A stretch of 64,000 bases of DNA from contig OX597832.1 in assembly GCA_951406725.2 (NCBI GenBank), positions 28,582,001-28,646,000 of the forward strand. Reading direction: 5' to 3'. The translations under genes and the position numbers were made by a program. Shown here in pieces: positions 1-48,498 of this stretch. The notes under the pieces were generated by a model. The model had not been told where the DNA came from and did not search any database. It worked only from the letters and a program-made list of their open reading frames with translations. How positions within the stretch are numbered: position 1 is the first letter of the stretch; every line of letters begins with the position of its first letter. This DNA is from Octopus vulgaris (lineage: Eukaryota).

Positions 1-544
1 ATATGTATTCCTGTGTATGACTAAACTGCATTTGGCAATGGGATTCTGGTTGGGAGCTCCAGGGTCTTGAGGAGTTTGGAACCGTCTCAAGGCCAATATT
101 GTTCCCAGGTCTGCTCTGACCCGGAGAATTGGCACCTTTCAGGATACCAGCTACGGTTCGAACAGCATACGTGATGGCAACCCATTTGGACACAGGAATA
201 CAGAAATACCTTTCTTTGATGTCAGGACGCGCAGCAAGATCACCGGGATTGGGGAACCCCTAGCTGTAATCATAGCACCCTTCTAGAAGAGGAACACGCT
301 AATACAAAACCTGTAGGTTCACGTGATCACCGGTCATCTCCCTTCAGTCTGTCACTAGTTACAAATCACTAAGACACAGAGAGTGGCACTCGTGATGTAC
401 AAGATCTTTCCTCCTCCATGAAACAAAGCTGTTCCCGCTGGACGTCAACTCAGTATTTCCAAGCTACGAATCGAGTGATTTATTGTAAGGTTATCTCCCT
501 AGATAGATTGCCTTCACTACGGCTAAGGAGCCCTTTCTACCCCA

Positions 545-935
545 CTGACACAAAGAAGCTTGAGAGGCGGTGGGATGGAACTTACACTCGCCTCCTTATG
601 AGAGCTCAAAATCTCTCGTGGAAGCGTCATCCAACCAAAGTACAAATATATGGGAAACTACCACCTGTATCATCTCTTGTGAAAGGTAGAAGAGTCCAGT
701 TTGCTGGACATTGTTGTAGAGCTGAAAACGAGGTAATTTCTACTCTTCACCTCTGGAAGCCATCTGCTCGCGATACCAGAGGGCGCACACTCTCCTACCC
801 TAATGTAATCTCCAGGGATACAGGCATCCAGCAACGGGACCTACGTAATGCTATGATGGACCGTGAAGTCTGGCGTAACATAGTAAATTCCATTGTCTCG
901 ACCACCACGGTCGAACAATGAAAATGATGAAGATG
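545..935 (+). mobile_element. 3' end of an RTE-clade non-LTR retrotransposon (C-terminal ORF fragment plus TGA-type tail)
   Basis: Translation DGTYTRLLMRAQNLSWKRHPT...RRVQFAGHCCRA...LHLWKP...MMDREVWR is typical of RTE/RTEX ORF C-termini; stop at 921 followed by a degenerate TGA/ATG tail. Confidence 0.8.
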
Positions 936-1935: not shown

Positions 1936-2364
1936 TACTCTTTTACTCTTTTTACTCTTATACTCTTTTACTTGTTTCAGTCATTTGACTGCGGCCATGC
2001 TGGAGCACCGCCTTTTAGTCGAGCAAATCGACCCCGGGACTTATTCTTTGTAAGCCCAGTACTTATTCTATCGGTCTCTTTTGCCGAACCGCTAAGTGAC
2101 GGCGACGTAAACACACCAGCATCGGTTGTCAAGCAATGTTAGGGGGACAAACACAGACACACAAACATACACACACACATACATATACATATACATATAT
2201 ACGACGGGCTTCTTTCAGTTTCCGTCTACCAAATCCACTCACAAGGCTTTGGTCGGCCCGAGGCTATAGTAGAAGACACTTGCCCAAGATGCCACGCAGT
2301 GGGATTGAACCCGGAGCCATGTGGTTGGTAAGCAAGCTACTTACCATACAGCCACTCCTGCGCC
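1936..2364 (-). mobile_element. tRNA-derived SINE, family B (head GGCGCAGGAGTGGCTGTGTGGTAAG, internal microsatellite, AAAAGAGT tail)
   Basis: Full-length; A/B-box-like head; about 10 similar copies in the window. Confidence 0.9.
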
Positions 2365-2524
2365 TATAATTCAATTTATGATGAAATTGTTGTGTACACC
2401 CCGCATGACGAATGTATTTATGCCGGTTATTGAGTTCGGTTTTTAATCTTAGACTAATTCTTCTCTAATACTCTTTCTTAAATTTCTTCTTCATTTCTCT
2501 GTGTTGTATCTCATCAGTTCCATC

Positions 2525-3135: not shown

Positions 3136-4240
3136 CTGGAGTTCAAATTCCTTCGAGGTCGACGTTGACTTTTATCGTTTCAGGGTCGATAATGCCAAAA
3201 TTCGAAATGACTGTTTTGAAGTCTTAAGGCTGCGCGCTGTCAGAATTATTGGTGCGCCGGGCAAAATACTTTGTGGCACTTAGTTCGTCTTGACGCTCCA
3301 AGGTCGATAAAATAATCAGTACCCGTTGATCTCTGGGGTCGATGTAATAGACTTCTCCACCCCCACCCGAAATTGCTGGGTATATACCAAGATTCGAAAC
3401 CAATATTTTGGAAGTCCACCAGAGAGAGGAGGTGGTTTATAATTTGTCCCTGTTATAATTTGTAACATTTTCACCATTTGGTAGTGTTCCAGTCAACAGA
3501 TTTGTCAATGGAATTTAGAGTTAGATAAAAGAACAGACATTAATTGTCTCATTTAAGGCGTGGGGAGCTGGCGGAAACGTTAGCACGCCGGGCGAAATGC
3601 TTAGCGGTATTTCGTCTACCGTTACGTTCTGAGTTCAAATTCTGCCGATGTCAACTTTACCTTTTATCCCCTTCAAGGTCGATAAAATAAGTACTAGTTG
3701 ATCACTGGGACCGATGTAATCGACTTGTCTCCTCTCTTGAACTTGCCGGCCTGGTGTCAAAATTTGAAGTCATTATTACATGAAGAAAGGCGGTGAGCTA
3801 GACAAAATGCTTAGAGGCACTTGTTTTTTTACATTCTGGGGTCAGTAGCAAGATCTGCTAGAGTAATTCGAGGTACTCCATACGATACCCGAGGGTTATA
3901 TGGATGTGGTCCAAGTTCTGCCGAGGTCAACTTTGGGTTAAAATAAGTACCTCTTGCGTATCGGGGTTAATGTAAACGACTTGCCTCCCTAACCCCTTAA
4001 AACTGCTAGCCTTGTGTCAAAATATGAAAACACTATCACAACACGAAGAAGGCAGAATCAGTAGAGCATCTGGAATTGAGCAAAGCATTACGAGTTCAAA
4101 TCTTGGCATAGTCAGTTTTGGTTTTCATCTTTTCGGTGGTCGATAAAATAAAGTACCAGTCAAGTACTGGGGTTGATGTACTCGACTGACTCCCTTTCCC
4201 TCAAAACCTTGTCTTGCACCTAAATTAGAATCCATTATTA
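3136..4240 (+). mobile_element. Pile-up of about five degenerate SINE family A copies
   Basis: Recurrent GGCGAGCTGG / GAGTTCAAATTC / GTCGATAAAATAAGTAC motifs at about 3130, 3230, 3560, 3790 and 4050, all on the plus strand. Confidence 0.75.
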
Positions 4241-4526: not shown

Positions 4527-4945
4527 AACGGGTATCCTTTAATGAGGTACACGCCGACTACGGCAAACGGGCAAAATGAAGCTTTGTCAGGGTACGCTTG
4601 CTTTTGATACATCCATATAACCCTCGGGTATAGTATGGAGTACTCCGAATTACTCTACGAGATTTTCTTATTCTATTTGGTGTGATGTGTGCGTGTGGGG
4701 TGAGGTGGGGTGGAGGGGTTCTGGTTCATATTTTATTCTTCTTTATTGTTTTTATTGATTTTTACCAGATTTTTACTCGCTCCACCCCCACTAGCCTACA
4801 TTACCTCTTTGTACTGTCCCCAATAAGAGAAATGATCATCATCATCACCATCATCATCACCACTTCTACTACAACCGCCTCCACCACTACCATCACCACC
4901 ACCACCACCACCACCACCACCAAAACCACCACCACCACCACCACC

Positions 4946-4979
<34 letters not shown>

Positions 4980-5325
4980 TAATTATTATAATAATTATTA
5001 TTATCGTCGTTATTATTATTATTTTTGACATTTCATGGTTGCGTGAGAAAATACCCATCACCGGTCTCCATCAATATGCAAGTTCAATGTATTTTCCCGA
5101 AAGTAAAACAAAAAAAAGAAAAAAACCCCAAAAAGATCAGCAGATTTATTGCCCCAATAAACATTCTCCCGTCAGAGAATATGGTGTGTGGAACATGTGA
5201 GCATGTTATGTGTGTGTGTCTGTCTATCTACAAGATTACAAGTTTAATCACCATATATATGTATATATGTAGATATATATATATGTATATATATATGTGT
5301 ATATATATATGTATATATCTATCTA

Positions 5326-5398
<73 letters not shown>

Positions 5399-5425
5399 AT
5401 ATATATATACATACATACACACATT

Positions 5426-5459
<34 letters not shown>

Positions 5460-5552
5460 CACGTTCATACATATATTATGTATATATATATATACCTGCA
5501 TATATATATACATAGATATATATATATGCATATATACATATATATATATATG

Positions 5553-5630
<78 letters not shown>

Positions 5631-5662
5631 ATATGTATGTATTTATATATATATATACATGC

Positions 5663-5713
<51 letters not shown>

Positions 5714-5716
<3 letters not shown>

Positions 5717-5919
5717 AATCCAAACGTAAAAACACCAAGAGAAAACACAACAACGCGAGGACATGGAACAAGTATAGTGTTATTAGACGTTCAGGGAGTA
5801 AAGAAAGCAGGAGGGTTTAACGTTTCGAGCGGAGCTCTTCGTCAGAAACATAGAAAAAGGAAAGATCCAGAGAAGGGAAGACAGAGGAAAAAAAATCGCC
5901 AACGATACACACGCGGTCA

Positions 5920-5921
<2 letters not shown>
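5714..5921 (-). mobile_element. ~210-bp Penelope-like/retrozyme-type repeat containing a minimal hammerhead ribozyme (5815-5849)
   Basis: Minus strand GTTT-CTGACGA-A-GAGC tcc GCTC-GAAA-CGTT-AAAC; second copy at 32425-32634; abuts a long (TA)n tract. Confidence 0.75.
5815..5849 (-). ncRNA. Minimal type-I hammerhead ribozyme motif
   Basis: Core CUGANGA and GAAA intact, 4-bp stem I (GUUU/AAAC), 4-bp stem II, palindromic AACGUU in place of stem III, GUU cleavage triplet. Confidence 0.7.
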
Positions 5922-5979
<58 letters not shown>

Positions 5980-5992
5980 CCCAGTTACAAGG

Positions 5993-6195
5993 GGCGGCGA
6001 GGTGGCAGAAACGTTAGCATGCAGGACGAAATGCTTAGCTGTATTTCGTCTGTCTTAACGTTCTGAGTTCAGATTCCGCCGAGGTCGACTTTGCCTTTCA
6101 TCCTTTCGGGATCGATAAATTAAGTACCAGTTGCGTAATCGACTGCCCATTCTCCTCCAAAATTTCGAGCCTTGTGCTTAGGGCAGAGAAGAATA
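5993..6195 (+). mobile_element. SINE family A
   Basis: Head, core GCCTTTCATCCTTTCGGG.TCGATAAATTAAGTACCAG and an alternative tail. Confidence 0.85.
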
Positions 6196-7130
6196 TTTTA
6201 AAATTTGTCTGATCTGGAGGGAGGTTGCCGGTGAATATTACGATGATGGCGGTGATGATGATGATGATGATATGACGTCAACGACGACGACGATGATGAT
6301 GATGATGATGATGATGGCGACAACGACGACGATGATGATGATGACGACAACTATGATGAATATGATGCTGGTGATGAGGTGGTGATGGTTGTGGTGGTGA
6401 CAGTGATGATGTCGATGGAGATGCAGATGGTGATGGTGGTGGGGGCTGATGGTGTTGATGATATTGACGAAGGTGTTAGTAGAGGTGGTGTTGAAGGTGG
6501 TGGTTGTGGTGGTGGTGGTGGTGATGTCGGTCGTAGTAGTAGTGGAGGTAGCGACGGTGGAGGTGGTGCCATTGAACTTACCACTTCCCTTCTCGACTTT
6601 TCCATGGGAAATTCAGGAGGCGGAAGTAATATCTCGGGAAATGTGGTGTGTGAGGGAGAGGGGAAGAGCGAAAGTATGTCTATCTGTCTGTGTGTCTGCC
6701 GGGTAGCGAGGGTGGGGTGGGTCAGCCACCCTTTTAGAACTTTCACAAGTGGAAAGTAACCGCGACAATAAGCAGCAAAATCCACCCTGAATTAATATCC
6801 TGCCTTTCTCAAGAAGAAGAAAGGAATGCGACGCCGGGTAAAGGCAATTGTAGATATACAATTTATTGGATGGCCACAGTTGGGACGGCGTTGATTACAG
6901 TTGACCTAGGGATAAATAATATTGGCAACAGACTAGTTGGTGCCAATAAAGAAATATTTGAAACACTGTTGCTTTTGTTGTTGTTGTTGTTATTGCTGTT
7001 GTTGTTATTGCTGTTGTTGTTATTGCTGTTGTTGTTTATTCTCTGGTCCAGGGGTGGACTGAGCCGTCGGTCAATCGGGCACTGCCCAAGGGAGTGGAGC
7101 TCTGAAGAGCCAGCACTCTACGGTCTTCGG

Positions 7131-7490
7131 TTTCAGTCATTTGACTGCGGCCATGCTAGAGCGCCGCCTTTAGTCGAACAAATCGACCCCAGGACTTATT
7201 CTATCGATATCTTTCGCCGAACTGCTAAGTTACGGGGGCGTAAACACACCAGCATCGGTTGTCAAGCGATGTTGGGTGGGGGTGGGGTGACAAACACAGA
7301 CACACAAACACACACACACACAAAAACATACATGTTTGGGCTTCTTTCCGTTTCCGTCTACCAAATCCACTCACAAGGCTTTGGTCGGCCCGGGGCTATA
7401 GTAGAAAACACTTGCCCAAGGTGCCATGCAGTGGGACTGAACCTGGTACCTTGTGGTTGGTAAGCAAGCTACTTGCCACACAGCCACTCC
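7131..7490 (-). mobile_element. SINE family B
   Basis: Colinear with 1936-2364. Confidence 0.88.
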
Positions 7491-7695
7491 TCTCAATGCT
7501 AAGGGGCTCGGTAAACAGTTATGCCCGAGGGCCCTTAATACTCTCAGTTCGCCTCTGCCCGGTCACTTCATGCTCAGGCAAATTTATGATGGAAGGCACT
7601 CCCACCATGGCCATCTCACCTTTTCCTGTGTACATAGAGCTCAGGACTACACTCTCTTATGTGATTTTTACCTAAGATGGTAAACTGTAATTAGT

Positions 7696-8018
7696 GAAGG
7701 CGCGTGGCTTAATGGTTAGGGTGTTCGGCTCACAATCGTAGGGTCATGAGTTCAATTCCAGGCGATGCGTTGTGTCCTTGGATCAGACTCTTTATTTCAC
7801 GTTGCTCCAGTCCTATCAGCTGGCAAAAATGAGTAGTACCTGTATTTCAAAGGGGCCGGCCTCATCATATTCTGAGCCACGCAGAATCTGCCTGAGAACT
7901 ACGATAAGGGTTTTGCGTGTCAGAGGAATACTCGGCCACTTGCACGTTATTTCACGAAGAGGCTCTTCCATTGATCGGATCAACTGGTACTCTTATCTTC
8001 GCAACCGACGGAGTACCA
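7696..8018 (+). mobile_element. tRNA-derived SINE family C (head GAAGGCGCGTGGCTTA.TGGTTAGG; tail ending ACCGACGGAGT.CCA)
   Basis: A/B-box head; second copy at 9307-9563. Confidence 0.85.
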
Positions 8019-8835
8019 GTTAGTTAGTTACACTGTGACTCGTGTGTGATTTGGCTGCTATTTCTTCCAGGTCGAGCGACCATGTAGCGGTTCCTTCGTT
8101 GGTTCATGTTATTTCTTTGTGTAAAGAGAGCAATTGGTTGCTGTTTGTATCAAGTGGTCTCCTTCGTCGGTGAGAAGAGGAGGAGGCGGGGGACGGGGGA
8201 GTTGTGGAGGAACAAAAGAAAAAAAACAAAAAAAACAGAAGGAGGCTAAAATAAATATATATAAAAGAAAAAAAACTTTAAAAAAATGTATGAAAGAAAT
8301 TAGTGCAAAATTTGTATTAGCTTAATGAAAAGTTGAATGGTGACCTGACAGGTAAATGATGTCGGTTATAGCAGTGATCGGGAGGTTTACAGGTAAACAG
8401 AATAGCAACATAACTCCACATTTCACACCTGTGTGTGTGCATGTGTGTGGTGTGTGTGTGTGTGTTATATATGTGTATATGTATGTATGGAATGTACGTA
8501 TCTCTCCCTCCTTCTCTGTCTCTCTCTCACCCTCTTATATTTATATCATCTTCATTCAACACTCGTTTTCCATGCTGGCATGGGTTGGACGGTTTGACAG
8601 GATTTGGCTCAAATTCTCTGTTTTAACAAGGTTTCTATGGTTGGATGCTCTTTCTTTACAGAGTGTACCGGGTGCTTTTTACACGGCGCGAGCGCGGGTA
8701 CTTTTAACGTTGCACCCGTGCCGGTGCTACGTAAAGACAGCCTGATTCGGCCCCAGGCAACTTAAAGTTTCATCGGCCTCTGTCAGGTTCACGCTCAGAT
8801 TACTGAACGGCTATTCTGAGTCTGAACGAGCTAGA

Positions 8836-8975
8836 TAGCAGCTTGCTTACCAGCCACATGGTTCCGAGTTCAGTCCCACTGCGTGGCACCTTGGGCAATT
8901 GTCTTCTACTATAGCCCCAGGCCGACCAAAGCCTTGTGAGTGGATTTGGTAGACCGAAACTGAAAGAAGCTCGTC

Positions 8976-8976
<1 letters not shown>
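8836..8976 (+). mobile_element. SINE family B, 5' half ending at the internal TA tract
   Basis: Matches the head through GAAAGAAGCTCGTCG. Confidence 0.85.
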
Positions 8977-9032
<56 letters not shown>

Positions 9033-9306
9033 TGCAGTTTCGTGTAACTTCGCGTGTTCTCATCCAAAATGGAGACGAGTACGAACCGATTTGATAATTG
9101 ATAATGAGACCGATTTGATAATTGCTAAGTAATCCCTCCCTGCATGAAACCATTGATAGCCTTGTTATAAACATACAAATAAAGAATATTTATCCACCAA
9201 TGTAGGACTGAGCACTCATTCTCACTGGTCGATGTTAGCGTGTGTATAATATATGTGTGTGTCTGTGTGTCTGTGTATATATATACATACACATATATGT
9301 GTGTGT

Positions 9307-9563
9307 GAAGGCGCGTGGCTTAGTGGTTAGGGCATTCGACTGACGATTGTAAGGTCGTGAGTTCTTGTCTTGTACTACTCAGCTGGCAAAATTCAAAGGC
9401 CAGCCTTGTCACACTCTGTGTGACGCTGAATCTCCCCGAGAACTACGTTAAGGGTACACATGACTGTGGAGTGCTCAGCCACTTGCACGTTAATTTCACG
9501 AGCAGGCTGTTCCGTTGATTGGATCAGCTGGAACCCTCGTCATCGTTACCGACGGATTGCCAC
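9307..9563 (+). mobile_element. SINE family C (internal deletion)
   Basis: Same head and tail as the 7696 copy. Confidence 0.82.
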
Positions 9564-10055
9564 GTGATATATATACAAGGAAAGAAATAAGATTAAAAAC
9601 AGATTTGTTCTACAAGAATAAAAAATATACTTAGAACCGTAATAGCAAAAGTATTTTGCAATATTATACAAATAAGATTTTTTTCTTCATACACAATAAC
9701 CGGTTTCGCAGACGCTCTTTAAAGTTTGAGTGTTAAATGCAAATCGGAATGAGAAATTTTGTTTGCTAGGATATATATATATATATTGACACATAAACCT
9801 TAAAAAGTCAGGTGGTATCAGAGATGAATATATTCAATTAACCATTTGACATCCTTAGAGTCACGGCTGTTTCGCCGCCTCCTTCAAGTAGTAACAATTT
9901 GAGTGGAATAAATTGTGTTTACATGTCTGCTCTGATATGCATGCTTCACATCATACAATACAATTGTATATTCACAAACCAATGCAAACAAAAGAAGGCC
10001 AGCTCATCAGATCACCAGAATATCATGGTTACACCCACGATTCAACTATCTCTCT

Positions 10056-10137
<82 letters not shown>

Positions 10138-10367
10138 ATGTATGTATGTATTCTCATGCATATAGTTGCATATCTAGACATGAGCATATATATCTAAATG
10201 ATAAACATCTGCAAAGTTCTACAGATCTGTACAGTTCCATTGATGGGTTGGATGGATGTATGCATATGTATATGTACATATTATATATATATGCATACAG
10301 TCTCGTGTAACTTCGCGTGTTCTCATCCAAAATGAAGACGAGTACGGACGTTCCCATGAGACCGATT

Positions 10368-10431
<64 letters not shown>

Positions 10432-10456
10432 TAGCCCGAAATTCGCTTGGTTTTTA

Positions 10457-12855
<2,399 letters not shown>

Positions 12856-12870
12856 TCTGTTTGTGTGTGT

Positions 12871-12938
<68 letters not shown>

Positions 12939-13028
12939 TATATATATATACTCTGAATTCATATATTGCACTACAAATTATATATTATACTCCGTATTAT
13001 TATATATATATATACATACATACATACA

Positions 13029-13064
<36 letters not shown>

Positions 13065-13098
13065 TATATACATATATATATAAACATTCATTTATATG

Positions 13099-13203
<105 letters not shown>

Positions 13204-13975
13204 GTGATATCATATTTATGAAAGTATAAACTCATATTTTTATAATTACTAACTTTCAAACTTAAGTGTACACACGTACATGTGCCCAATATATATTTTC
13301 AGTGAATACATATATACTTTGTGTATATTCGATGTGATGCTATAAGAGACTGATTGTATACACGCTCGCGCGCGTGCGATTATTCAAACACATATATTGA
13401 GAGAGAAAGAGAGAGAGAGAAGAGGGAGGATGATACAGAAGAACGCAACCAGGACTGCATTTGGCTGTTGTTTAACCGGCAGAAGACGTCTCGAGGAAGT
13501 TTCTCATCTGATAATCTTTCCTTGAACATGTCGTGAATTTGCTGTATGGAGAATTACATTCTTTGACATGGCTTTCTTAACCAATTTTCTCCTCTCACTT
13601 CTTTACTGTCAGCATCGGATACCAAGCACAAAGCACGCTTCAAGCGCATGCACGCACGCACGCACGCACGCACGCACATACGCATACATACATACATACA
13701 TACATACATACATACATACATACATACACACATATCTATATACACACACATATACACACGTACAGAGTAAAGCAGTAAGATCCGGGGTGGTTCTGTGTAG
13801 GCAAAAGTAAAAGAAAATGATTCAACTATGGTATGTATGTATGTGTGTATGTGTGTGTGTATGTACGTATGTATGTACGTATGTATGTATGTACGTATGT
13901 ATGTATGTATGTATGTATGTATGTATGTGTGTATGTATGTATGTATATGTGTGCGTGTGTGTTTGTTTGCTTGTT

Positions 13976-14018
<43 letters not shown>

Positions 14019-14020
<2 letters not shown>

Positions 14021-14075
14021 CGAGTAAAAACAGAAGTTTAACGTTTCGGTGCTGAATACTTCTTCAGAAAGGAAG
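14019..14075 (-). ncRNA. Degenerate minimal hammerhead motif
   Basis: 14037-14070 minus: TTT-CTGAAGA-AGTATTCAGCACC-GAAA-CGTT-AAA; stem II imperfect; abuts (TG)n. Confidence 0.5.
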
Positions 14076-14223
14076 TAAATATCAATAGTTTTTGAAGGAT
14101 ATATACAATGGGATTAGTGAGGGAGAAGGGGAAAAGGTGATAAGAGAAAAGAGAAAGAAAGAGAGCGGGAGAGAGAGATTGTGAAAGAGAAAGGGGAAGA
14201 AAGAGAGAGGGAGAGAGCGAGAA

Positions 14224-14262
<39 letters not shown>

Positions 14263-14674
14263 TGAGAGAGAATTAACAGGTGTTAGCAGGGTGGGATAGA
14301 GCAGTGGCCAGAGAGGGAAGAAATTAAGGTGTTAGAGAGGAGGCAAGGACAGGCAGTCATAGAAAAGTTTCAACGGTACAGATTGCTGCACTGATGCTAC
14401 CATTCTTCATTCTTTCCTCTTCACCCCCGCCCAAGCTTCATCTGCATCTAATCGAGCGAGTCTCCTCACGCCGTATCTGCACTGACACCACGAACAGAGA
14501 GAACGATCTCGAATGGAATCAGGCTAATTTTGTCTCCACGTGGCCTTGTGCTCCAAACAATATAAAATAACGTACTCGGTACTCCACCCCTTGATATGCC
14601 TGAGACAGTTTATTATCAAGAACAACCATCAATATTGACAGCCACCGACATTAACTATCAGCCCTAAACGCATA

Positions 14675-14728
14675 AGCGCTTAGGTCGGTCGGTAGAGCAT
14701 CGCTCTTTTAATCTGGGGTTTATGGGTA
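14675..14728 (+). pseudogene. Degenerate tRNA-Lys(TTT)-like 5' portion, cut off by a SINE
   Basis: TAGGTCGGTCGGTAGAGCATCGCTCTTTTAATCTGGGGT resembles metazoan tRNA-Lys(TTT) TAGCTCAGTCGGTAGAGCATCAGACTTTTAATCTGAGGGT; a SINE starts at 14730. Confidence 0.55.
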
Positions 14729-14729
14729 G

Positions 14730-14950
14730 GGCGGCGAATTGGCACAATCGTTAGCAGGCCGGGCGAACTGCCTACCGGTATTTCGTCTGCCGCTACAATC
14801 TGAGTTCAAATTCCGCCGAGGTCGACTTTGCCTTTCATCCTTTCGGGGTCGATAAATTAAGTACCAGTTTCGCACTGGGGTCGATATAATCGACTTAATC
14901 CGTTTGTCTCTCTTTGTTTGTCCTCTCTATGTTTAGCCCCTTGTGTGTAG
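14730..14950 (+). mobile_element. SINE family A
   Basis: Full-length copy. Confidence 0.88.
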
Positions 14951-14986
14951 TAGTACAATCGATAATACAGTTTATGCGTGTATCTG

Positions 14987-15024
<38 letters not shown>

Positions 15025-15356
15025 TGTCTGTGTATGTATATATTTGTGTATATGTGTGTATGTGTATATATATGTGTGCATACAAATACGCACGCGCATA
15101 CACACGTGCATACACACATACACACACACATACACATATATGTACATATATATCCATACTTACATACAAGCACACACGCACACATATATATAGAGAGAAA
15201 GAGAGGCAGAAAGAGGAGGGACAGAGAGAGAGAGTGAGAGAGAGAGTAGGAATAGGATAGATAAATTAATAGACAGAGAGACAGACAGATAAACAAACAG
15301 ACAGACAAACAGATAGTTAGATACATAAGTAAATAGATAGAGAGACACAGATAGAT

Positions 15357-15416
<60 letters not shown>

Positions 15417-15698
15417 TGATAGATAGATAGATCGATAGATAGACAGATAGATAAATAAGTAGACATACAGATATATAGCGGTATGCGTGTATATATTCAG
15501 ACGTAAAAAGACATTCCCTGCAGTAATTGTCTGGTTATTCTATTCATAGTCGAGTTGGGCTGTTAATGACGCCATTCGATTGTCGGACACGTGTTTCTGC
15601 TCCATTATGCTTCGTCAGTGACCGACACCGCTTCAGATATTCACAGCCCTGTGGGAACTCTCATCCATATGTAAACAGCGCGGGCGTGTATACACATT

Positions 15699-16222
<524 letters not shown>

Positions 16223-16541
16223 AATGTACATACATATATTTACACACACACACACACACACACGTGTGTGTAAATATATGTAATATACACACACGTGTGT
16301 ACGTGTATATATATCACGTACTGTTTATAATTCCTTGAAATCTCCCAATAAAAAATAACAGCATTTGGTTTTAACCGAGAAGCAAAGTGCCATGTTTGGT
16401 ATTTAAATAACAATACAATGTTCAGATTGAACGATAGAAGACTCTTGCATCTTTTTAATATACGGCATTGTTGTATGGTTGAATATATTAAGTGTGCGAG
16501 TATGTACGTATGTATATACGCATATCTACATATTACGCAGT

Positions 16542-16882
16542 GGAGGCGCAATAGCCCAGATCGCGGTTTCGATTCCTAGACCGGGCGTTGTGAATGTTTA
16601 TTGAGCGAAAACACCTACAGTTCCACGAGGCTCCGGCAGGGGGTGGTGGCGAATCCTGCTGTACTCTTTCACCACCACTTTCTCTCACACTTTCTTCCTG
16701 TTTCTGTTGTTCCTGTATTTCAAAGGGCCAGCCTTGTCACAATCTGTGTCACGCTGAATCTCTCCGAGAACTACACGTTAAGAGTACACGTGTTTATGGA
16801 GTCCTCAGCCACTTGTACGTTAATCATGAGCAGGTTGTTCCGTTCATGAGCAGGTTGTTCCGTCGTAACCGACGGAGTACCA
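16542..16882 (+). mobile_element. SINE family E (GGAGGCGCAAT head plus family C tail)
   Basis: Different head and middle; from CCTGTATTTCAAAGGGCCAG onward it matches the family C tail. Confidence 0.8.
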
Positions 16883-16933
16883 TTATATATATTTCATATA
16901 TATATATATATATATTATATTGTTTTTTAAATT

Positions 16934-17245
16934 CTTTTACTTGTTTCAGTCATTTGACCTCGGCCATGCTGGAGCACCGCCTTTAGTCGAGTAAATCGAC
17001 CCCAGGACTTATTCTTTGTAAGCTTAGTACTTATTTTATCGGTCTCTTTTTCTTTTGCCGCAACGGTATGTTACGGGGACGTAAACACACCAACACCGGT
17101 TGTCAAGCGATGGTGGGGGGACAAACAGACACACAAATACACACACACATATATATATATATACACGACGGGCTTCTTTCAGCTTCCATCTATCAAATCC
17201 ACTATCAAATTCCATCTATCAAACTCAGTAAGACTGAACCCGGAA

Positions 17246-17248
<3 letters not shown>
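16934..17248 (-). mobile_element. SINE family B (internally deleted head)
   Basis: Tail colinear with the other copies; head reduced to fragments. Confidence 0.8.
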
Positions 17249-17284
<36 letters not shown>

Positions 17285-17318
17285 TATAGATATATATAGA
17301 TATAGATATATATATATA

Positions 17319-17690
17319 GGCGCAGGAGTGGCTGTATGGTAAGTAGCTTGCTTCCCAACCAGATGGTTCCGGGTTCAGTCCCACTGCGTGGCACCATGAG
17401 CAAATATCTTCTACTATGGCTTCGAGCCGACCAAAGCCTTGTGAGTAGATTTGGTAGACGGAAACTGAAAGAAGCCCGTCGTATATATATATACATGTGT
17501 GTGTGTGTGTTTGTGTGTCTGTGTTTGGCCAACGTACCATCGCTTGACAACCGATGATTGTGTGTTTACGTCCCCGTGACTTAGCGGTTCGGCAAAAGAG
17601 ATCGATAGAATAAGTACTAGGCTTACAAAGAATAAGTTTTCGGGTCGATTTGTTCGACTAAAAGGCGGTGCTCCAGTTAAAGAATAAAAG
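17319..17690 (+). mobile_element. SINE family B
   Basis: Full head and nearly full tail; head-to-head with 16934-17248. Confidence 0.9.
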
Positions 17691-17857
17691 CATACGTATG
17701 TATATGCGAGTGCCTGTGTATGTATGTATATATGTATATATGTATGTATGTATGTATGTATGTACATGGAGAGAAAGAACGAGATTGGAAACGAAGAGCA
17801 GGACCAGACAGATAGTCATACACGTACTCACACACACACACGCGCGTGCGCGCGCAT

Positions 17858-17894
<37 letters not shown>

Positions 17895-18647
17895 GAGGTT
17901 TGTATGTGTGTGTTTGTACCTGTAAACAAACTGTAGCACTTTTACATCCGTTATGAACACTATACACGAAATAAAAAAGCACCATTCATACACCCACCCA
18001 CATACAGATCTCTCCCCACCCCATTCAATGCATGTGTGCATGTACACATTTCACACACACTCACACACACACTCATGCACACATGCACATACAAATGACA
18101 AAACTCCCTTACCGTATGTCGATTGTAGCCTCACCTTTTCTCATAAAATAAGTAAACCCGACTCCAGATAAAAGGTCCTTATTTATTTGGTTGGTGCCAT
18201 GAGGCTGATTAGATCCTTGTACACTGATCCCTATTGTATGCCACGGTAAATACCGCATATAGCGGTACTGTATGTAACGAGTAATGAATGAAACACCAGT
18301 GTTCGATTAAACGTCAGAACGTCCTTAACGAGCACCTGGTATAAACAGTAACGAACCGGGAATCGATCCCTCGCTGTGTCTCCTTAAAAGTCTCACCGAA
18401 TATCTGAAGACGGTAAAGCACCGGGTTTGATCCTTCGATGTTGTTGCTGTTGTTGTTGTTTTTGTTTTCTTCTTTTTCTCAGAACGAATTCAAATAAAAG
18501 AAGTTTAGTCAATGTTGAAATGAAGAAACTCCGAGAGTCGCTCGAAGCCGTTCTTTTCGTTGTTGGCGGTTGCTAAAATTAGATGAGGCCAAACTGCTTT
18601 AAGAACCGGATCCGGTTATGTGTGGGCTTGCGTGTGTGTGTGTGTGT

Positions 18648-18684
<37 letters not shown>

Positions 18685-18877
18685 TGTGTGTGTGAGTGAG
18701 AGAGAGAGAGAGAGAAAAGGAGAGTGGGGAGGGGTGAAGGTGTACATACACATGCTCAAAAGCACGCACTGACGTACCTGTAACTATGTTTTCTCACGTA
18801 GAATAAATGTGTGTGTGTGTGTGTATGTGTGTATGTGTGTGTGTGTGTTTATTTATATATATATGCATGTACATGTA

Positions 18878-18920
<43 letters not shown>

Positions 18921-19056
18921 CCATACACACATATATATATGTACATACATGTATATGTACACACACATACACACAATCACATATATGTGGATATATTCTT
19001 GTGTGTGTGTGAGTGTGTGTGTGTATGTGTGAGCGTGTATGTGTGTGAGTGTGTGT

Positions 19057-19105
<49 letters not shown>

Positions 19106-20753
19106 CAATTGAATGCGGTGTTTTGTAAGGAGAGTCTGCGTAGTTTGTGCGACTGTGTAAAGCTAACTTTATATATTTATCACAAGAACTTTGACCTGCA
19201 ACCCAAATAAAAGACAAAGCCGTTACCTTTATGCTTAATGCCTCCACTCAAACATGGCAAATACCAATGCAAAGAAATCACCTGAAATACCAACCCTGAT
19301 TCACAAAATGGTGACACAACAATTAAACAGACACCTACGAATTAATCTCTAAAAACCCTCTCCCTTGCTGAGCTGATCGGACACAATAGCGACAGACGCA
19401 AACTTCTATCTTTTCCTTATATTCTCCATTATCTTGTCCCCTGTGCAGCCTTTGACGCTGCTCAACCAACCCCTTTCAGGTCTTCTTATACCTCTTATAA
19501 CGGGGTTTGTCAATGGATAGCCATATTTGCTGGAGTCATAGTACCCTAGTGTTGTTTTTAATAATCAAATCCCTGTTTTTCTTTTAGCTTCTTTTCATCA
19601 ATTGACAGGAGAGTTCTATGGATCGTAGTCTTCCCATCAATTTCTGTCCTAATCGTTTATCTTTCCGAAGCGTTTTAATAAGTTTGTCCTAAATGTCCAA
19701 GCTTGTTTTCAGGCTTTTAGTTAACCCTTGTTTCATTTTAAGGTTATCTCTACACAGTTTTTATAGAATTCAAAGCCAATACTGTAAGTTGCGATATTTC
19801 GTAAACAAATTCGTTTATGTAAACAAAGCGATCGAAAAGAGAAAAAAGAAGTAATTGGTGTATGTGTATATTTCGATGATTATTGTCCTCTCATCAGTAT
19901 TTCATCCAACCTATCAACTTCTTACATACGTTTTGACTAATATAAAGCTCTTCTTTCATAAGTACCAAGTTACTCGGGTGGATGACAAAAATGGGAATAT
20001 GTATCATACATAATGCATAAACATCTGGGGAAAATGTCCTGCGCATTACATATGATGCAGAGGACAGGTAAAGATAAAGACGATTTCACACAGAGATGAT
20101 TAATGGGCCGTGTTTGGTTCTTGTGTTTGTAAAACTTAGTCATGAGGAAAGATCAGTTCTCATTTAATTTCAACAGGAATTCTCTGAGTTTGGCAAGAAT
20201 TGAGAATTTATCGGGTTTATGTTAAGACTAAGCATTTATATGTTGATGTCAGAGTTCCAATAGATTAAGTTTCTAATAGATTAAGAGGAAAGGTGAAAGG
20301 TCAGTAGTAGGGAGGGGGTAGTGGAGGGCCTGATTGTCGAAACACAGTTAAGGGTAATCATACAGGTGTGGCGGTGTGGTTTTAAGAAAAGGGTATGTCG
20401 CTGGGTGGTTCAGGTGAACAGAGACAGTTGTAGTAGCTACGGTATAATAGACAATGAGAGATATCACGTCTGTGGATAAACTTTTTTATGACTCAGGGCA
20501 TAACTTTTTCAGACACTAGGGCGTGATTTGTGGGAGATTAGGTTGTTGTTTCTAGTATGTCATGCGACCTACTTATAAGCCACTAGACACTAACTTTTCC
20601 GTATCGTCTGCAATCAAAATTGTCGGCTGGGCTTCATGCAAATTGATTTCGGTGAAATGAGGCAATAAAGGAAATGGCTCTGTCCAGAAACTAGAAAATT
20701 CGTAAAAGAATTTGAATTCCTTGATCGATAGTTCAATATTTTATCTATTCAGA

Positions 20754-24762: not shown

Positions 24763-25260
24763 GGAATATGTTGTAATTAAGGTGCGCAGTCAGTACTTTT
24801 GATATTCTCCGAGTAGCAAGTATGGCGGATTTAGTTGCAATATGGCGTCAGAATATGTCTGAATTGATAACACACGTTGTTGTTGCTGATGTTGTTGTTG
24901 TTGTTGCTATTGATGTTGTTATTGTTGTGGTTGACGTTAGCAGTCAAAGCTTTGGTCATTCAAATACACTATGGTATCTACATACGGCTACGTAGACTGG
25001 ACTTGTGACAATTGCGTTGGTAATAGATGCAGTATATAGCGAAACTACACCACACTGTGGTACCTACTTACAGCTAGGTGGCCTGGGTCGTTGTCTTAGC
25101 ACAAGTCACTACACAACGTGACACTAATTTACAGTTATGTCGAAAACAAATAAAATCCACAAATTCCAACAAACTCTGTGTAATCTCCAAGGATTTTTCC
25201 TGGGGACATTACACATGCATACATGGGTTTGTTTTTCCCACATGTTTCGTTTCATCTAGA

Positions 25261-25966
25261 ACTGTTCGTGAACCTTTTTCTTCTTTCATTTCTCCCTCAT
25301 TCTCTCGACGAACTTCCACTGCCAGAAACGACAACTTGCTCCCTATTTCTTCCTCTAAGTGTAACGATATTAATTCAACAGTTCGTGAACCTTTTTTCTT
25401 CTTTCATTTCTCCCTCATTCTCTCGACGAACTTCCACTGCCAGAAACGACAACTTGCTCCCTATTTCTTCCTCTAAGTGTAACGATATTAATTCAACTGT
25501 TCGTGAACCTTTTTCTTCTTTTATTTCTCCCTCATTCTCTCGACGAACTTCCACTGCCAGAAACGACAACTTGCTCCCTATTTCTTCCTCTAAGTGTAAC
25601 GATATTAATTCAACTGTTCGTGAACCTTTTTTCTTCTTTCATTTCTCCCTCATTCTCTCGACGAACTTCCACTGCCAGAAACGACAACTTGCTCCCTATT
25701 TCTTCCTCTAAGTGTAACGATATTAATTCAACTGTTCGTGAACCTTTTTTCTTCTTTCATTTCTCCCTCATTCTCTCGACGAACTTCCACTGCCAGAAAC
25801 GACAACTTGCTCCCTATTTCTTCCTCTAAGTGTAACGATATTAATTCAACTGTTCGTGAACCTTTTTTCTTCTTTCATTTCTCCCTCATTCTCTCGACGA
25901 ACTTCCACTGCCAGAAACGACAACTTGCTCCCTATTTCTTCCTCTAAGTGTAACGATATTAATTCA
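25261..25966. repeat. Tandem array, 6 x 117-118 bp
   Basis: Units start at 25261, 25378, 25496, 25613, 25731, 25849; near-identical. Confidence 0.95.
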
Positions 25967-32424: not shown

Positions 32425-32634
32425 TGTTAATCCAAACATGAAAACACAAAGAGAAAACACAATAACGCGAGGACGTGGAACAAATATAGTATTATTGGAT
32501 GCTCAGGAAAGAAGGGAAGAAGGAGGGTTTAACGTTTCGAGCGGAGCTCTTCGTCGGACACATAGGAGAAGGAAAGATCCAGAGAAGGGAAGACAGAGGA
32601 AAAAAAATCACCAACGGTACACACGCGGTCACAT
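32425..32634 (-). mobile_element. Second copy of the hammerhead-bearing repeat (core mutated to CCGACGA)
   Basis: Colinear with 5714-5921 over its length; embedded between TA-rich tracts. Confidence 0.75.
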
Positions 32635-32682
32635 TTTGAATGTATATATGTATATATATATATGTGTATATATATATATGTA

Positions 32683-34393: not shown

Positions 34394-34760
<367 letters not shown>

Positions 34761-35289
34761 TATATATATATGGAACAAAAACGCAACAAAGAGCTTTAAA
34801 ATGTTCGGACAGGTAGACAATACAAAGGCGGACAAGAGAAACAACAATTAGAAGGACAGATAAAAAAAAGACGGGTCATTCTTGGCTTTCTTTCATCAGT
34901 CGAGTCCCAAAAGTCACGACCATTTCGGACAGTTACACTTGAGATGGTTCGATTTGGTTGCCCCACCCCAAAGTCTAAGCTAAGAGCATTGGACCCCTTT
35001 GTAAGAAAGCTAGCGAATGTGTACGGCAACAAAGACTAAAAGCAAATAAAAAAAAAAAAGAAACGGAGAATATGGTACACAATTATGAATACAAACAATA
35101 TGGCGGCTCGTGTTTAGGCACTGCAGAACTGTAGCACCCTCTATTTCCATTCGGTATAATCGATAACATTCAATATAATGAATCCCTTTTTCTTTAATTC
35201 TTTCTTTATACTTGTACATTATATAATCCTTAAGTTTAATGTCAGTAGCTGTCCCCTATTTTATGAAATGAATACAAAAATCCTTGTAT

Positions 35290-42483: not shown

Positions 42484-42788
42484 TGCGTCATTCGATTAGG
42501 GTCCAAGATTTATAAGAATTAAACCGGAATTCTTTTGATCATGGATTTGCTCGATTAGGATTGACCTAGGGTTAAACAATAAGCAGCATATCAACCATTC
42601 CCACCATCAGTACCAGCACCACCACACCGCCACCACTATCATCATTACCATCATCACCATCGCCATCGTAGTGGTGTACAAGCATTCTGGTAACAACTAT
42701 AGATCTTTGTTTCAGAAAATTCGATATTTTCAAAAATCAAAATAAAAAGATAAAAGTGTGTTTTTATTAAGAAAAAAAAAAGGCCCGA

Positions 42789-42861
42789 AGGTTCCGGCGA
42801 GGATCGAACTCACGACCTTCTGCGTGTAAAGCAGATGTGATAACCACTACACCACGGAACC
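42789..42861 (-). tRNA. tRNA-Val(TAC)
   Basis: Reverse complement GGTTCCG TG GTG TAGTGGTTAT CAC A TCTGC TTTACAC GCAGA AGGTC GTGAG TTCGATC CTCGC CGGAACC T: complete cloverleaf, A and B boxes, oligo-T terminator just downstream. Confidence 0.96.
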
Positions 42862-43375
42862 CACTCACATTAGGTTGTCGAGTTTCTGACTATATTATTA
42901 ATCTATTATTAAAATAGTTGCAATAATTCATTGATTTATCCACCCTGTGAATTTCTTGCAAAAGTTGTTTGAAAGTTCTCGTATAATGTGCTTTGAGGTT
43001 TACTATCACACCTTAAGCCATTGATTGGAGCAAAGAAGAGAAATGGTAGCATCATATTATAAATATACCTTTCTCTTGGAGTATGGACAACTGCAGGTAA
43101 TGCAGAGTCAAGTATCTTGTATCCGAATCACAATGAAACAACTCGAGCCGGATCCGAACGGAGGACCCATTCGTTGGTAGACAGTCTCTTTTTATAGCCC
43201 ACAAGCCTAAAAGAATACAGTTTACACCTACATACACACACACTAAAAACGAGAACTGGAACTCCTTTGACCGTCGGTTATTTCGATCAGGGTCGACTTG
43301 GTGTTAAACAAAAAACAGACCTTCGTCTCTAGAATTACTTTTATCAAAAAAAGAAGAAAAAAAAGGCAAAGTTAA

Positions 43376-43448
43376 AGGTTCTGGTGAGGATCGAACTCAC
43401 GACCTTCTGCGTGTGAAACAGACGTGATCACCACTACACCACAGAACC
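43376..43448 (-). tRNA. tRNA-Val(CAC), variant copy (D-loop GGTGATC, U-G pair at the end of the anticodon stem)
   Basis: GGTTCTG...TCTGT TTCACAC GCAGA...GTGAG TTCGATC CTCAC CAGAACC T; oligo-T downstream. Two substitutions outside the anticodon versus the TAC copies; may be functional or decaying. Confidence 0.85.
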
Positions 43449-43496
43449 TTACGGAATTTTCTGCTTTATTTTTATGTTTATTACTCTATTATTTTT

Positions 43497-43727
43497 TTTA
43501 TTTATTTGTTTCAGTCACTTGACTGTGGCTATAGTGAAGCACCGCCTTTAGTCGAACAAATCGCCCCCAGGACTTATTCTTTATAAGCCTAATACTTATT
43601 CTATTGGTATCTTTTGCCGAAATGCTCAGTTACGAGGACGTAAACACACCAGCATCAGTAGTCAAGCGATGGTGTGGATATAGACACAGACACACACAGA
43701 AACACACACACACATATGTGTATATAT

Positions 43728-43768
<41 letters not shown>

Positions 43769-43932
43769 GACGGGTTTCTTTCAGTTTCCCCACTACCAAA
43801 TCCACTCACAAGGCTTTGGTTGGCCCGAAGTTATAGTGGAAGACACTTGCGCAATGTGCCACACAGTGGGACTGAACCCGGAACCATGTGGTTGGTAAGT
43901 AAGCTACTTACCATACAGCCACGCCTGTGCCT
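43497..43932 (-). mobile_element. SINE family B inserted in the 5' flank of tRNA-Val(CAC)
   Basis: Full-length copy; flank homology with the other tRNA copies resumes at about 43935. Confidence 0.88.
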
Positions 43933-43964
43933 ATTGTTAAAATATTTGCAGTGACTCATTGATC

Positions 43965-44213
43965 CCCGAGTTGTGTCTTGGGGATACATTCTATTTTCAC
44001 ATTATGAGGGAGGTCATCTAAGTTCGCTGGGTGGCTGGGTGCGTTGTGTTTAAAAGAACAATGCATTGTTGGAAGCATAATATGCGACACTGGGCCTTTG
44101 TCATTGCGCTTTTGTAAACCTCACATCTATGCCTCCTTATTTGAATGTCAAATCATTGGTAGATTAAACTTTGTGAAAGATTGGAAAGCCCTTGAATTTT
44201 CGGTGTGAAACAC
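43965..44213 (-). pseudogene. Tigger/pogo transposase fossil, middle (DDE) part
   Basis: Minus translation HTENSRAF...LPMI*HSNKEA*M ... HNAPSHP matches HS.NPRA...LPV.W.SNKKAWM ... DNAP.HP. Confidence 0.75.
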
Positions 44214-44226
44214 GTGCAAAGGGTAA

Positions 44227-44720
44227 AGATCCCCTTCGGGTCATGAATGACCATGAGACTGCACCTAGAAAATTAACTCCCGAGGCCCTATTCCGGGCAA
44301 GGTTGTTTCGGAAAGACCAACAGTCGCCCATGCATACCAGCTTCCTCTTTCCACGCCATTATACACGGGATAAAGAGTAAAGATCCCCTTCCGGTCATGA
44401 ATGACCACGAGATTGCACCTAGAAAGTTCCCCTCTGAGGCACAACTCCAGGCAAGGTTGTTTATGGAAGACCAGCGGTCACCCATGCATACCAGCCTCTC
44501 CTCTCAACGCCACCGATGTTATCCAAGAGAAAGGCAGAAGGGGCCGATACAGCTTGGCACCAGTGACGTCGCAACTCAGTTCTACAGCTGAGTGAACTGG
44601 AGCAACGTGAAAATAAAGTGTCTTGCTCAAGAACACAACACGCAGCCCGGTCCGGGAATCGAACTCACTACTTCATATTTGTGAGCCCGACGCTCTAACC
44701 ACTAAACCATGCTCCTTCAC
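44227..44720 (-). mobile_element. SINE family D (C-like head, different tail) with a tandemly duplicated 3' tail, inserted in the Tigger fossil
   Basis: Matches 54882-55207; tail segment present twice (44227-44355, 44381-44510). Confidence 0.85.
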
Positions 44721-44724
44721 ATGT

Positions 44725-45025
44725 AGCTACTTTAATTTCATTTCACCAGCGATGAAAGAAGTTCCAGACGAGTTTTGCAATCTTTAAATCCTGGTGTTGA
44801 TTGTTCTTCTCGATAAATCAAAGTATTTAGCAGGTATGCGCTTCCAGAAAGGGCAGTTTCATCAACGTTGTACGCTTGTCCTGGTGTGAAGCCTCCTCCA
44901 GCAACCATTTTCTTCAACTACTCAGGATAATTAGAAGCAATCTCTGTATTAGGCATCTTCACCAATTGTTTTTGTGTCGTGCAAATTCATGCGCTTCTTA
45001 AAACCATTCATACCCAAGATCAGAG
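44725..45025 (-). pseudogene. Tigger/pogo transposase fossil, N-terminal part
   Basis: Minus translation (with frameshifts) FKKRMNLH...GE...GGFTPGQAYNVDETA..WKRIP...EEQSTPGFK matches FKKR..LH..GE / FN.DETGLFWKRMP / PGFK. Confidence 0.85.
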
Positions 45026-45072
45026 ATACTTTATACAACTTTTGAAATACACTAAGATACCACATTATGTCT

Positions 45073-45404
45073 TAGAACTTCTCACCAAAAACAACATGGT
45101 ATTGATTCTGTAGCCGCCCTGTTCGTCAGATTTAACACCTGCCGACTTCCATCTCTTCCTTAAGAGGAAAATGCAGCTCAAAGGTCGACGTTTTAAAACT
45201 GTTATGGAGATCAGGAGCGAATCGCAGAAGGTCTTCAACTCGCTTACGGAAAACGACTTGCAGGCCGGATTCCAAAAGTGGCAAGAACGCTGGAACCGGT
45301 GTATTGCGGAGCAATGTGACTATTTTGAAGGAGACAATGTTGAAAATAAACTATTTTTTAAATTAAATCTAACTAGTCCAGGAACTCTTCGATACCACCT
45401 CGTA
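45073..45404 (+). mobile_element. Mariner (Tc1/mariner) 3' fragment with 3' TIR
   Basis: PPCSSDLTPADFHLF...LKGRRF...FQKWQERWNRCIAEQCDYFE is the YSPDLAP motif region and mariner C-terminus; ends in ...GATACCACCTCG-TA. Confidence 0.88.
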
Positions 45405-45589
45405 TTTTATGTAACTTCAGAACCACGAGATACTTCCGGTGACTTATTTACGTGTACTGAAAAAAAAACTCCCAAAGAACTATTACAGTCGACCATACCG
45501 ATTTATAAGGATCCTCGAAACAACAAAGGGTCATTGTTTCTAAGATTAAAAAAAGAAAACAGCTAAGGATTTAGTTTAAAAGTTTATAC

Positions 45590-45662
45590 AGGTTCTGGTG
45601 AGGATCGAACTCACGACCTTCTGCGTGTAAAGCAGACGTGATAACCACTACACCACAGAACC
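45590..45662 (-). tRNA. tRNA-Val(TAC)
   Basis: GGTTCTGTGGTGTAGTGGTTATCACGTCTGCTTTACACGCAGAAGGTCGTGAGTTCGATCCTCACCAGAACCT; TTTT about 8 nt downstream; identical to the 47376 and 53919 copies. Confidence 0.97.
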
Positions 45663-46258: not shown

Positions 46259-46476
46259 CAGTGCTTTTCAAACATTTTGCTGGAGCGGAACCCCAAGGAA
46301 ACATTCCACTGGCTCGAGGAACCCCTGTGCAATAATTTAATAGTCTTGTGCACACATATCTGCACAGGAGAATTAAAATTACTGCCAGTTTTAGCAGTTT
46401 TGTAACTTCTTGCGGAACCCCCGGACTGTACTGGCGGAACCCTAAGGTTCCGCGGAACCCTGGTTGAAAACCATTG
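46259..46476. mobile_element. hAT (Charlie-like) MITE with 8-bp TSD
   Basis: TIRs CAGTGCTTTTCAA / TTGAAAACCATTG; perfect TSD CTCTATGG at 46251-46258 and 46477-46484; internal GGAACCC repeats. Confidence 0.92.

Positions 46477-48433: not shown

Positions 48434-48498
<65 letters not shown>

What the first reader, a model, noticed from the sequence alone, without database searches (positions are those of the whole stretch)
5714..5921. Short microsatellite-associated elements carrying a minimal hammerhead ribozyme (intact copy)
Seen: the minus strand reads GUUU-CUGACGA-A-GAGC(ucc)GCUC-GAAA-CGUU^AAAC. This gives an intact catalytic core, stems I and II, and a palindromic AACGUU where stem III should be. 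The motif sits in a ~210-bp element that recurs at 32425-32634, with related motifs at 34655 and 14037. All four are on the minus strand and end, after a U-rich stretch, in a (TA)n or (TG)n tract. Established: minimal type-I hammerheads with palindromic stem III, thought to cleave as dimers, occur in Penelope-like element termini and retrozymes. Inference: this is a family of non-autonomous ribozyme retroelements or solo PLE termini targeting microsatellites, possibly making small circular RNAs. Four in 64 kb would imply a large genomic copy number.
Basis: partly seen in the sequence, partly recalled or inferred. Interest (0 to 1): 0.8.

Follow-up and report, generated by a model that had tools for sequence, protein, structure and literature searches.

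The report
Penelope retroelement tails carrying minimal hammerhead
A letter-perfect minimal hammerhead-ribozyme motif sits in the middle of a very abundant 210-base repeat that is likely the tail of a Penelope-like jumping gene, a kind of motif published in 2014, and this lone copy is predicted not to cut itself, so the catch is correct but largely ordinary.

Summary
The motif is real. It lies on the minus strand at 5849-5815 and has the full core, an extra base after A9, 4-bp stems I and II and a loop-less ACGU stem III. It matches the published minimal hammerhead (min-HHR) consensus of Penelope-like elements (PLEs) position by position. Only 5714-5921 and 32425-32633 are one family (185 of 208 identical); the motifs at 34.7 kb and 14.0 kb belong to other families, and three of the four are damaged. 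The family is high-copy: 4,843-19,821 contigs per run were laid in 4 public runs. Both window copies start at the same base and end in (TA)n, which points to a defined ~210-nt unit. A U4C core change is carried by 35-48% of contig depth, far above CpG decay (1-8%). Within the family the motif is no more conserved than its flanks. Best reading: solo PLE terminal-repeat units, likely copied in trans into TA microsatellites, with self-cleavage probably not needed. No PLE reading frame was linked to this family, and no circular RNA was shown. Verdict: a new member of a known kind, low interest.

The parts
5714..5921 (-). Family A unit, copy 1: 208 nt, non-coding, U/C-rich; 76 nt before C3 and 105 nt after H17; between (TA)n(TG)n and (TA)n
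5815..5849 (-). Minimal type I hammerhead motif with intact core; predicted cut between 5819 and 5818
   Evidence: consensus in PMC4209133 Fig. S3
5844..5844 (-). Core position U4; C in 35-48% of family contig depth in four runs
32425..32633 (-). Family A unit, copy 2: same 5' start, 185 of 208 identical to copy 1; motif 32527-32561 has U4C and a stem I mismatch
34562..34757 (-). Unit of a second family with the same layout (71 nt, motif 34655-34690, 97 nt) between (TA)n tracts; core A6U; stem II GAGU/GCUC
14019..14071 (-). Motif of a third family: intact core, 3-bp stem I, degenerate stem II, about 21 nt before (CA)n; 5' boundary not defined
5400..5713 (.). (TA)n-based microsatellite at the 3' end of copy 1 (likely target; extent given only as far as read)
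5922..5975 (.). (TG)n and (TA)n tract at the 5' side of copy 1

Best explanation
The 208-base unit is a high-copy non-coding repeat with a minimal hammerhead motif in its middle; it is likely the solo terminal repeat (pLTR, 3' tail) of a Penelope-like retroelement, likely copied as a fixed short unit into TA microsatellites by a Penelope-type endonuclease and reverse transcriptase supplied in trans, from an RNA in which the hammerhead probably stayed uncut. Shown: the motif, its match to the PLE min-HHR consensus, high copy number, a shared 5' start in both window copies, 3' ends in (TA)n, and the U4C subfamily. Inferred: a GIY-YIG nick in (TA)n, target-primed reverse transcription from the unit's 3' end across the motif to the 5' start, and inertness of a lone copy (stem III cannot form without a second copy). 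The motif's selected role, cleavage as a dimer in tandem PLE transcripts, would belong to the parent element and not to these dispersed copies.
For: Position-by-position match to the consensus 'U-rich NNN CUGANGAH G..C GAAAN palindrome NU H NNN AU-rich'. The Acropora Neptune-PLE motif in that figure has the same CUGACGAA, the same GCUC 3' arm of stem II and the same C G U stem III. The one metagenome hit with this motif architecture (L001) lies about 90 nt after the stop of a broken frame that reads VY..C..C..YIG..R..H.....H..E..N on the same strand; by eye this fits the PLE endonuclease description in PMC8557442. (TA)n and microsatellite preference of Naiad and Neptune PLEs is reported there. 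Three of 4 motifs have a strict dinucleotide tract within 110 nt downstream (fourth 124 nt), against a baseline of 0.147. High copy number: 19821, 9115, 14763 and 4843 contigs laid. Both window copies start at TGTGACC in different flanks. Loose-end consensus in three runs continues only a few AT-rich letters past that start, within a 30-letter limit. The 34.7 kb unit has the same size and layout. U4C holds 44, 48, 35 and 46% of depth against 1-8% at CpG sites; U4C 'considerably decreases activity in vitro' in a viroid hammerhead (PMC3088659). A single S. mansoni min-HHR showed no cleavage and dimers only low cleavage (PMC4209133). The double-hammerhead fold of copy 1 is -7.3 kcal/mol, against -24.7 for a non-catalytic dimer and -7.7 for a monomer hairpin that buries the core.
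Against: No PLE reading frame is linked to this family: none was recognised next to any of the four motifs and no genome was available. L001 is another organism's element and was one hit. Its frame got no informative Pfam match and no homologue, so the endonuclease call is by eye. The fixed 5' start rests on 2 copies plus loose-end consensus of only 0.55-0.62 agreement. 264-910 contigs per run run over the ends of the stretch, and their continuation is not shown. The same paper that reports lower U4C activity says it suffices for viroid infectivity in vivo. Nearest-neighbour energies ignore tertiary and magnesium effects. Contig depth is not a copy count.
Confidence: 0.55

Rival explanations
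1. The units are ordinary 5'-truncated insertions of an autonomous PLE; the shared start reflects a truncation hot spot, for example microhomology between ATGTG at the unit's start and the TA/TG target.
For: Most PLE insertions are 5'-truncated and most min-HHRs are single motifs 'probably related to truncated PLEs'. The distance from the 5' start to C3 (76 nt) is close to the stop-to-motif distance in L001 (about 90 nt). One 448-nt contig extends well past the 5' start (table 8, record 23; content not shown). The 14.0 kb motif has no defined 5' boundary.
Against: Two of 2 family copies start at the same base in different flanks; a second family shows the same unit size; loose-end consensus shows no long conserved continuation.
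Confidence: 0.33
2. The family is a non-LTR retrozyme: tandem source loci are transcribed, cut by dimeric hammerheads, circularised to ~210-nt RNAs and reverse-transcribed; the dispersed units are monomer offspring.
For: Unit length is near that of cnidarian retrozymes (220-245 nt, PMC7229834). Retrozyme families can be up to 100% monomers and derive from pLTRs (bioRxiv 2026.07.22.740005). Three head-to-tail-type joints appear in run X8 (table 5c).
Against: No tandem copy in the window. The motif is the minimal, not the canonical, type that PMC7229834 finds in retrozymes. Each joint sits at a different position with depth 9.8-27.5 against summed depth of 10^5-10^6. About two fifths of depth carries U4C.
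Confidence: 0.1
3. The motif is a chance likeness inside a pyrimidine-rich repeat.
For: No Rfam hammerhead model matches at E up to 10; the predicted folds are weak (z -0.96).
Against: Pattern counts exceed all 100 shuffles, the descriptor gives 3 hits against 0.13, and features outside the patterns (extra base 9b, G10.1-C11.1 pair, palindromic 15.2-16.2) agree with the published consensus in three families.
Confidence: 0.02

Closest known systems
Minimal hammerheads (min-HHR) in the pLTRs of metazoan Penelope-like elements (Cervera and De la Pena 2014, PMC4209133)
   Same: Core, extra base between 9 and 10.1, G10.1-C11.1, loop-less palindromic C-G stem III, short stem I, U-rich 5' flank; thousands of mostly single dispersed motifs in several families per genome; molluscs (Lottia, Crassostrea) already in the alignment.
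   Different: Stem II is 4 bp (shorter than most, like the Acropora example). A U4C form is a major subfamily here, whereas none of the rows read in Fig. S3 has C at position 4 (their descriptor fixed the core). No octopus row. No linked ORF shown here.
Neptune and Naiad PLEs that target microsatellites; non-autonomous Chlamys elements such as MRC1 (Craig et al. 2021, PMC8557442)
   Same: Insertion in (TA)n or (CA)n; short non-autonomous partners sharing PLE 3' ends are known.
   Different: Naiads lack canonical HHRs, so the parent would be Neptune-, Poseidon- or Hydra-like; clade not determined. MRC1-type elements often form head-to-tail repeats, these are solo.
Non-LTR retrozymes (Cervera and De la Pena 2020, PMC7229834; Li et al. 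2026 preprint 10.64898/2026.07.22.740005)
   Same: Non-coding, 200-400 nt, type I HHR, PLE-derived, monomers dispersed.
   Different: Defined by tandem units with complete HHRs and circular RNA; neither shown here.

Membership tests
PLE min-HHR | CUGANGA and GAAA core with NUH site | tested here: met
   Copy 1 and the 14.0 kb motif exact; 32.5 kb U4C and 34.7 kb A6U
PLE min-HHR | [quoted passage not shown] | tested here: met
   A5838; G5837-C5827 (definition)
PLE min-HHR | Palindromic 15.2-16.2 with no or palindromic loop 3 | tested here: met
   ACGU in all four motifs
PLE min-HHR | Family-level covariation in stems | tested here: inconclusive
   One-sided C1.4 to U (15-25% of depth, keeps a G-U pair); stem II 10.4 C/U between families; no two-sided change within family A among the 40 of 42 rows shown
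PLE min-HHR | Self-cleavage as dimer, not monomer | not testable with these tools
   Needs in vitro assay; folding energies only
Penelope-like element | Same terminus found as pLTR flanking an RT plus GIY-YIG ORF | tested here: inconclusive
   No ORF next to the window copies; no genome; same motif architecture follows a GIY-YIG-like frame only in the unrelated L001
Penelope-like element | Microsatellite insertion bias (Neptune, Naiad), target duplication not discernible | tested here: met
   3 of 4 motifs within 110 nt of a strict tract, fourth 124 nt, baseline 0.147; 3' loose ends are (TA)n in 4 of 4 runs. No control with the window's SINEs was run.
Non-LTR retrozyme | Tandem repeats of two or more units with complete HHRs | tested here: not met
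   No tandem in the window; only three low-depth head-to-tail joints in contigs. Tandem source loci elsewhere are not excluded.
Non-LTR retrozyme | Abundant circular monomer RNA | not testable with these tools
   Only assembled contigs were available; no run on record as RNA
Rfam hammerhead families | Covariance-model match | tested here: not met
   2 matches at E up to 10 in 5700-5940, neither a hammerhead

The most novel reading that the evidence does not exclude
Family A is a true SINE-like, PLE-dependent retroposon with a fixed 210-nt body, in which a master with a crippled core (U4C) amplified about as well as the intact one. That would be a natural experiment showing that the PLE hammerhead serves as a recognition or folding signal for the reverse transcriptase, or is a passenger, and is not needed as a cutter for mobility, which bears on the open question of what PLE hammerheads do.
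Probability: 0.25. Interest if true: 0.5.

Novelty: new member of a known kind. Interest (0 to 1): 0.24.

Why it matters
As a catalogue item it adds one more host and family to a motif class already known in thousands of copies across animals. Its one useful feature is the near-even split of U4 and C4 cores in a high-copy family. Craig et al. (PMC8557442) state that HHR function in endonuclease-bearing PLEs is still unclear, and two natural alleles with comparable genomic success give a cheap way to test whether cleavage matters for copying.

Tried and rejected
No whole genome is held, so there is no copy census, no consensus from genomic copies and no ORF linkage. Rfam finds no hammerhead (none among the 150 of 273 rows shown). 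The other GAAACGTT(A) hits at 3574, 4308, 6008, 36477 and 63343 fall in a dispersed SINE-like repeat and pass no hammerhead descriptor: rejected. Translation upstream of the 14.0 and 34.7 kb motifs showed no recognisable PLE frame. Viral contigs and prokaryote genomes gave 0 matches. No RNA holder was listed; X8 is only guessed to be RNA and contigs cannot show strand, ends or level, so expression is untested. A-to-I editing as the source of U4C: rejected as unsupported, since U-to-C on the motif strand is not the editing direction and the variant has similar frequency in runs guessed to be DNA. CpG decay of an ancestral C4 as the source of U4: unlikely, since other CpG sites decay by 1-8% only. 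Same-strand bias is not significant. The product 0.147^4 printed was not used, because copy 2 lies 124 nt from a strict tract. The L001 frame could not be named by Pfam or homologue search. A protein search to name the host gave no organism names. Lunse et al. 2017 on dimer cleavage is not held.

Full report
Observation. By standard numbering C3 is 5845, A9 5839, an extra A 5838, stem II 5837-5834 with 5830-5827, GAAA 5826-5823, then C, G, U16.1 and H17 = U5819, with stem I formed by 5849-5846 and 5818-5815. The two-box pattern occurs 2 times against 0.03 expected. The 12-mer ending the motif occurs 4 times against 0.28. A structural descriptor with one core change allowed gives 3 hits against 0.13 in 100 local shuffles. 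Rfam has no matching model.

The four motifs. Only 5714-5921 and 32425-32633 are one family, with 23 differences in 208 positions, 2 of them in the 35-nt motif. The 34562-34757 unit has the same layout (71 nt, motif, 97 nt, against 76 and 105) between (TA)n tracts, but its flanks match family A only marginally (z 2.1, 1.8, 0.4 and 1.7). The 14.0 kb motif has unrelated flanks. Copy 2 has U4C and a stem I mismatch, the 34.7 kb motif A6U, and the 14.0 kb motif a degenerate stem II. Flanks are 42-52% U. Three of 4 motifs lie within 110 nt upstream of a strict TA/CA/TG tract, the fourth 124 nt, against a baseline of 0.147 per position in this microsatellite-rich window; I ran no control with the window's SINEs. 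No PLE frame was recognised beside any motif.

Family-wide data. No genome is held. Of 24 runs listed I laid 4: the best holders of three organism labels and the best run guessed to be RNA. At 80% likeness 19821, 9115, 14763 and 4843 contigs were laid, so the family is high-copy; the tool's depth is not a copy number and I give none. 3' loose ends are (TA)n in all four runs. On the 5' side the loose-end consensus in X1, X3 and X4 runs to the same start as both window copies and then a few AT-rich letters, with agreement 0.55-0.62 and a 30-letter limit; 264-910 contigs per run run over the ends unseen. From the 40 of 42 variant rows shown: copy 1 differs from the majority (over 90%) at 7 flank positions, and 11 positions are polymorphic at 10-90%, 2 of 35 in the motif and 9 of about 140 outside (Fisher p = 1.0). 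The two in the motif are C1.4 to U (15-25%, still pairs as G-U) and U4 to C (44, 48, 35, 46%). CpG positions vary by only 1-8%, so U4/C4 is a subfamily split and not decay. Three head-to-tail-type joints appear in X8 at different positions with depth 9.8-27.5 (table 5c); they fit rare partial tandems and do not show a circle.

Context from elsewhere. One metagenome contig holds the same architecture (L001; 1 hit). About 90 nt upstream on the same strand ends a broken frame with two cysteines between VY and YIG-like boxes and later R, H, E and N residues. By eye this fits the PLE endonuclease as described in PMC8557442; Pfam and a homologue search did not name it. It shows where such motifs sit, not what family A's parent is.

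Mechanism. Inserted copies carry the motif whole in mid-unit, so the template RNA was either uncut or cut and rejoined. A lone copy cannot form stem III. The double-hammerhead fold scores -7.3 kcal/mol against -24.7 for a non-catalytic dimer and -7.7 for a monomer hairpin pairing the core with CGUU (tertiary and magnesium terms are not modelled). With about two fifths of depth carrying U4C, I infer that copying did not depend on cleavage. The likely route is a PLE endonuclease nick in (TA)n and target-primed reverse transcription from the 3' end to a defined 5' start, with proteins supplied in trans (0.55). Ordinary truncation of an autonomous PLE at a hot spot remains a strong rival (0.33); a retrozyme circle cycle is weaker (0.10).

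Comparison with print. PMC4209133 (read: main text parts 1-3 of 4, supplement parts 1-2 of 3) defines min-HHRs, reports thousands per genome mostly as single motifs, gives a consensus that this motif matches, includes two molluscs, and finds no monomer cleavage and low dimer cleavage. PMC8557442 (passages) reports microsatellite targeting and non-autonomous Chlamys elements, and says HHR function in these PLEs is unclear. The preprint 10.64898/2026.07.22.740005 (part 1 of 5, passages and Discussion) derives retrozymes from pLTRs and defines them by tandem units. PMC7229834, PMC6765202 and PMC3088659 were seen as passages; the last says U4C lowers activity in vitro yet allows viroid infectivity. 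PMC13282606 (passages and supplement list only) lists 31 recently active PLE families in O. vulgaris and does not use the word ribozyme in its main text; its unread supplement or library may hold this family. Lunse et al. 2017 was not held and is known only through PMC6765202. Five searches listed no paper whose title or abstract start describes this family or octopus min-HHRs; Dfam and Repbase could not be checked. Earlier AI notes of this scan reached the same verdict for other genomes; they are not evidence.

Verdict. Observation confirmed, interpretation partly supported, new member of a known kind, interest 0.24. The U4/C4 split and the apparently fixed unit are the only points worth follow-up.

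Noticed in passing
window 42787-53993: Seven dispersed tRNA-Val genes (five TAC, two CAC), three of them identical over 73 nt; 42487-42937 and 46486-46929 form a 450-nt duplication that includes one.
   Followed up: no
window 34770-35100, minus strand: Pyrimidine-rich stretch ending in a short (TA)n directly upstream of the 34.7 kb unit; it contains CTGATGA at about 34898 but no valid stem II or NUH partner. Possibly the tail of another element stacked in the same tract.
   Followed up: partly
table 5, window 5761-5818: Single contigs with deletions ending at 5816 or 5818, and one joint back to 5816, within 3 nt of the predicted cut site; too few to interpret.
   Followed up: no
window 32626-32640 and L001 2036-2041: Family A starts at ATGTGA in copy 2 and the L001 frame ends in ATG TAA at a similar distance from the motif; the unit's 5' start may be the remnant of the parent's last codon and stop.
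   Followed up: no
window 373-921 (+) and 45114-45566 (+): End of a LINE-type reverse transcriptase frame (relatives carry PF00078) and a fragment that looks like a mariner transposase (recalled motif; no Pfam hit).
   Followed up: partly
window 25260-25966; 10457-12855; 61738-62130: A 118-nt tandem array of about six near-identical units, a 1.2-kb tandem duplication at 93%, and a 390-nt imperfect inverted repeat.
   Followed up: no
window 1953-2367 and 3546-3726 with many copies: Two abundant SINE-like families, each with more than ten copies in the window; they resemble octopus SINEs as recalled, not tested.
   Followed up: no
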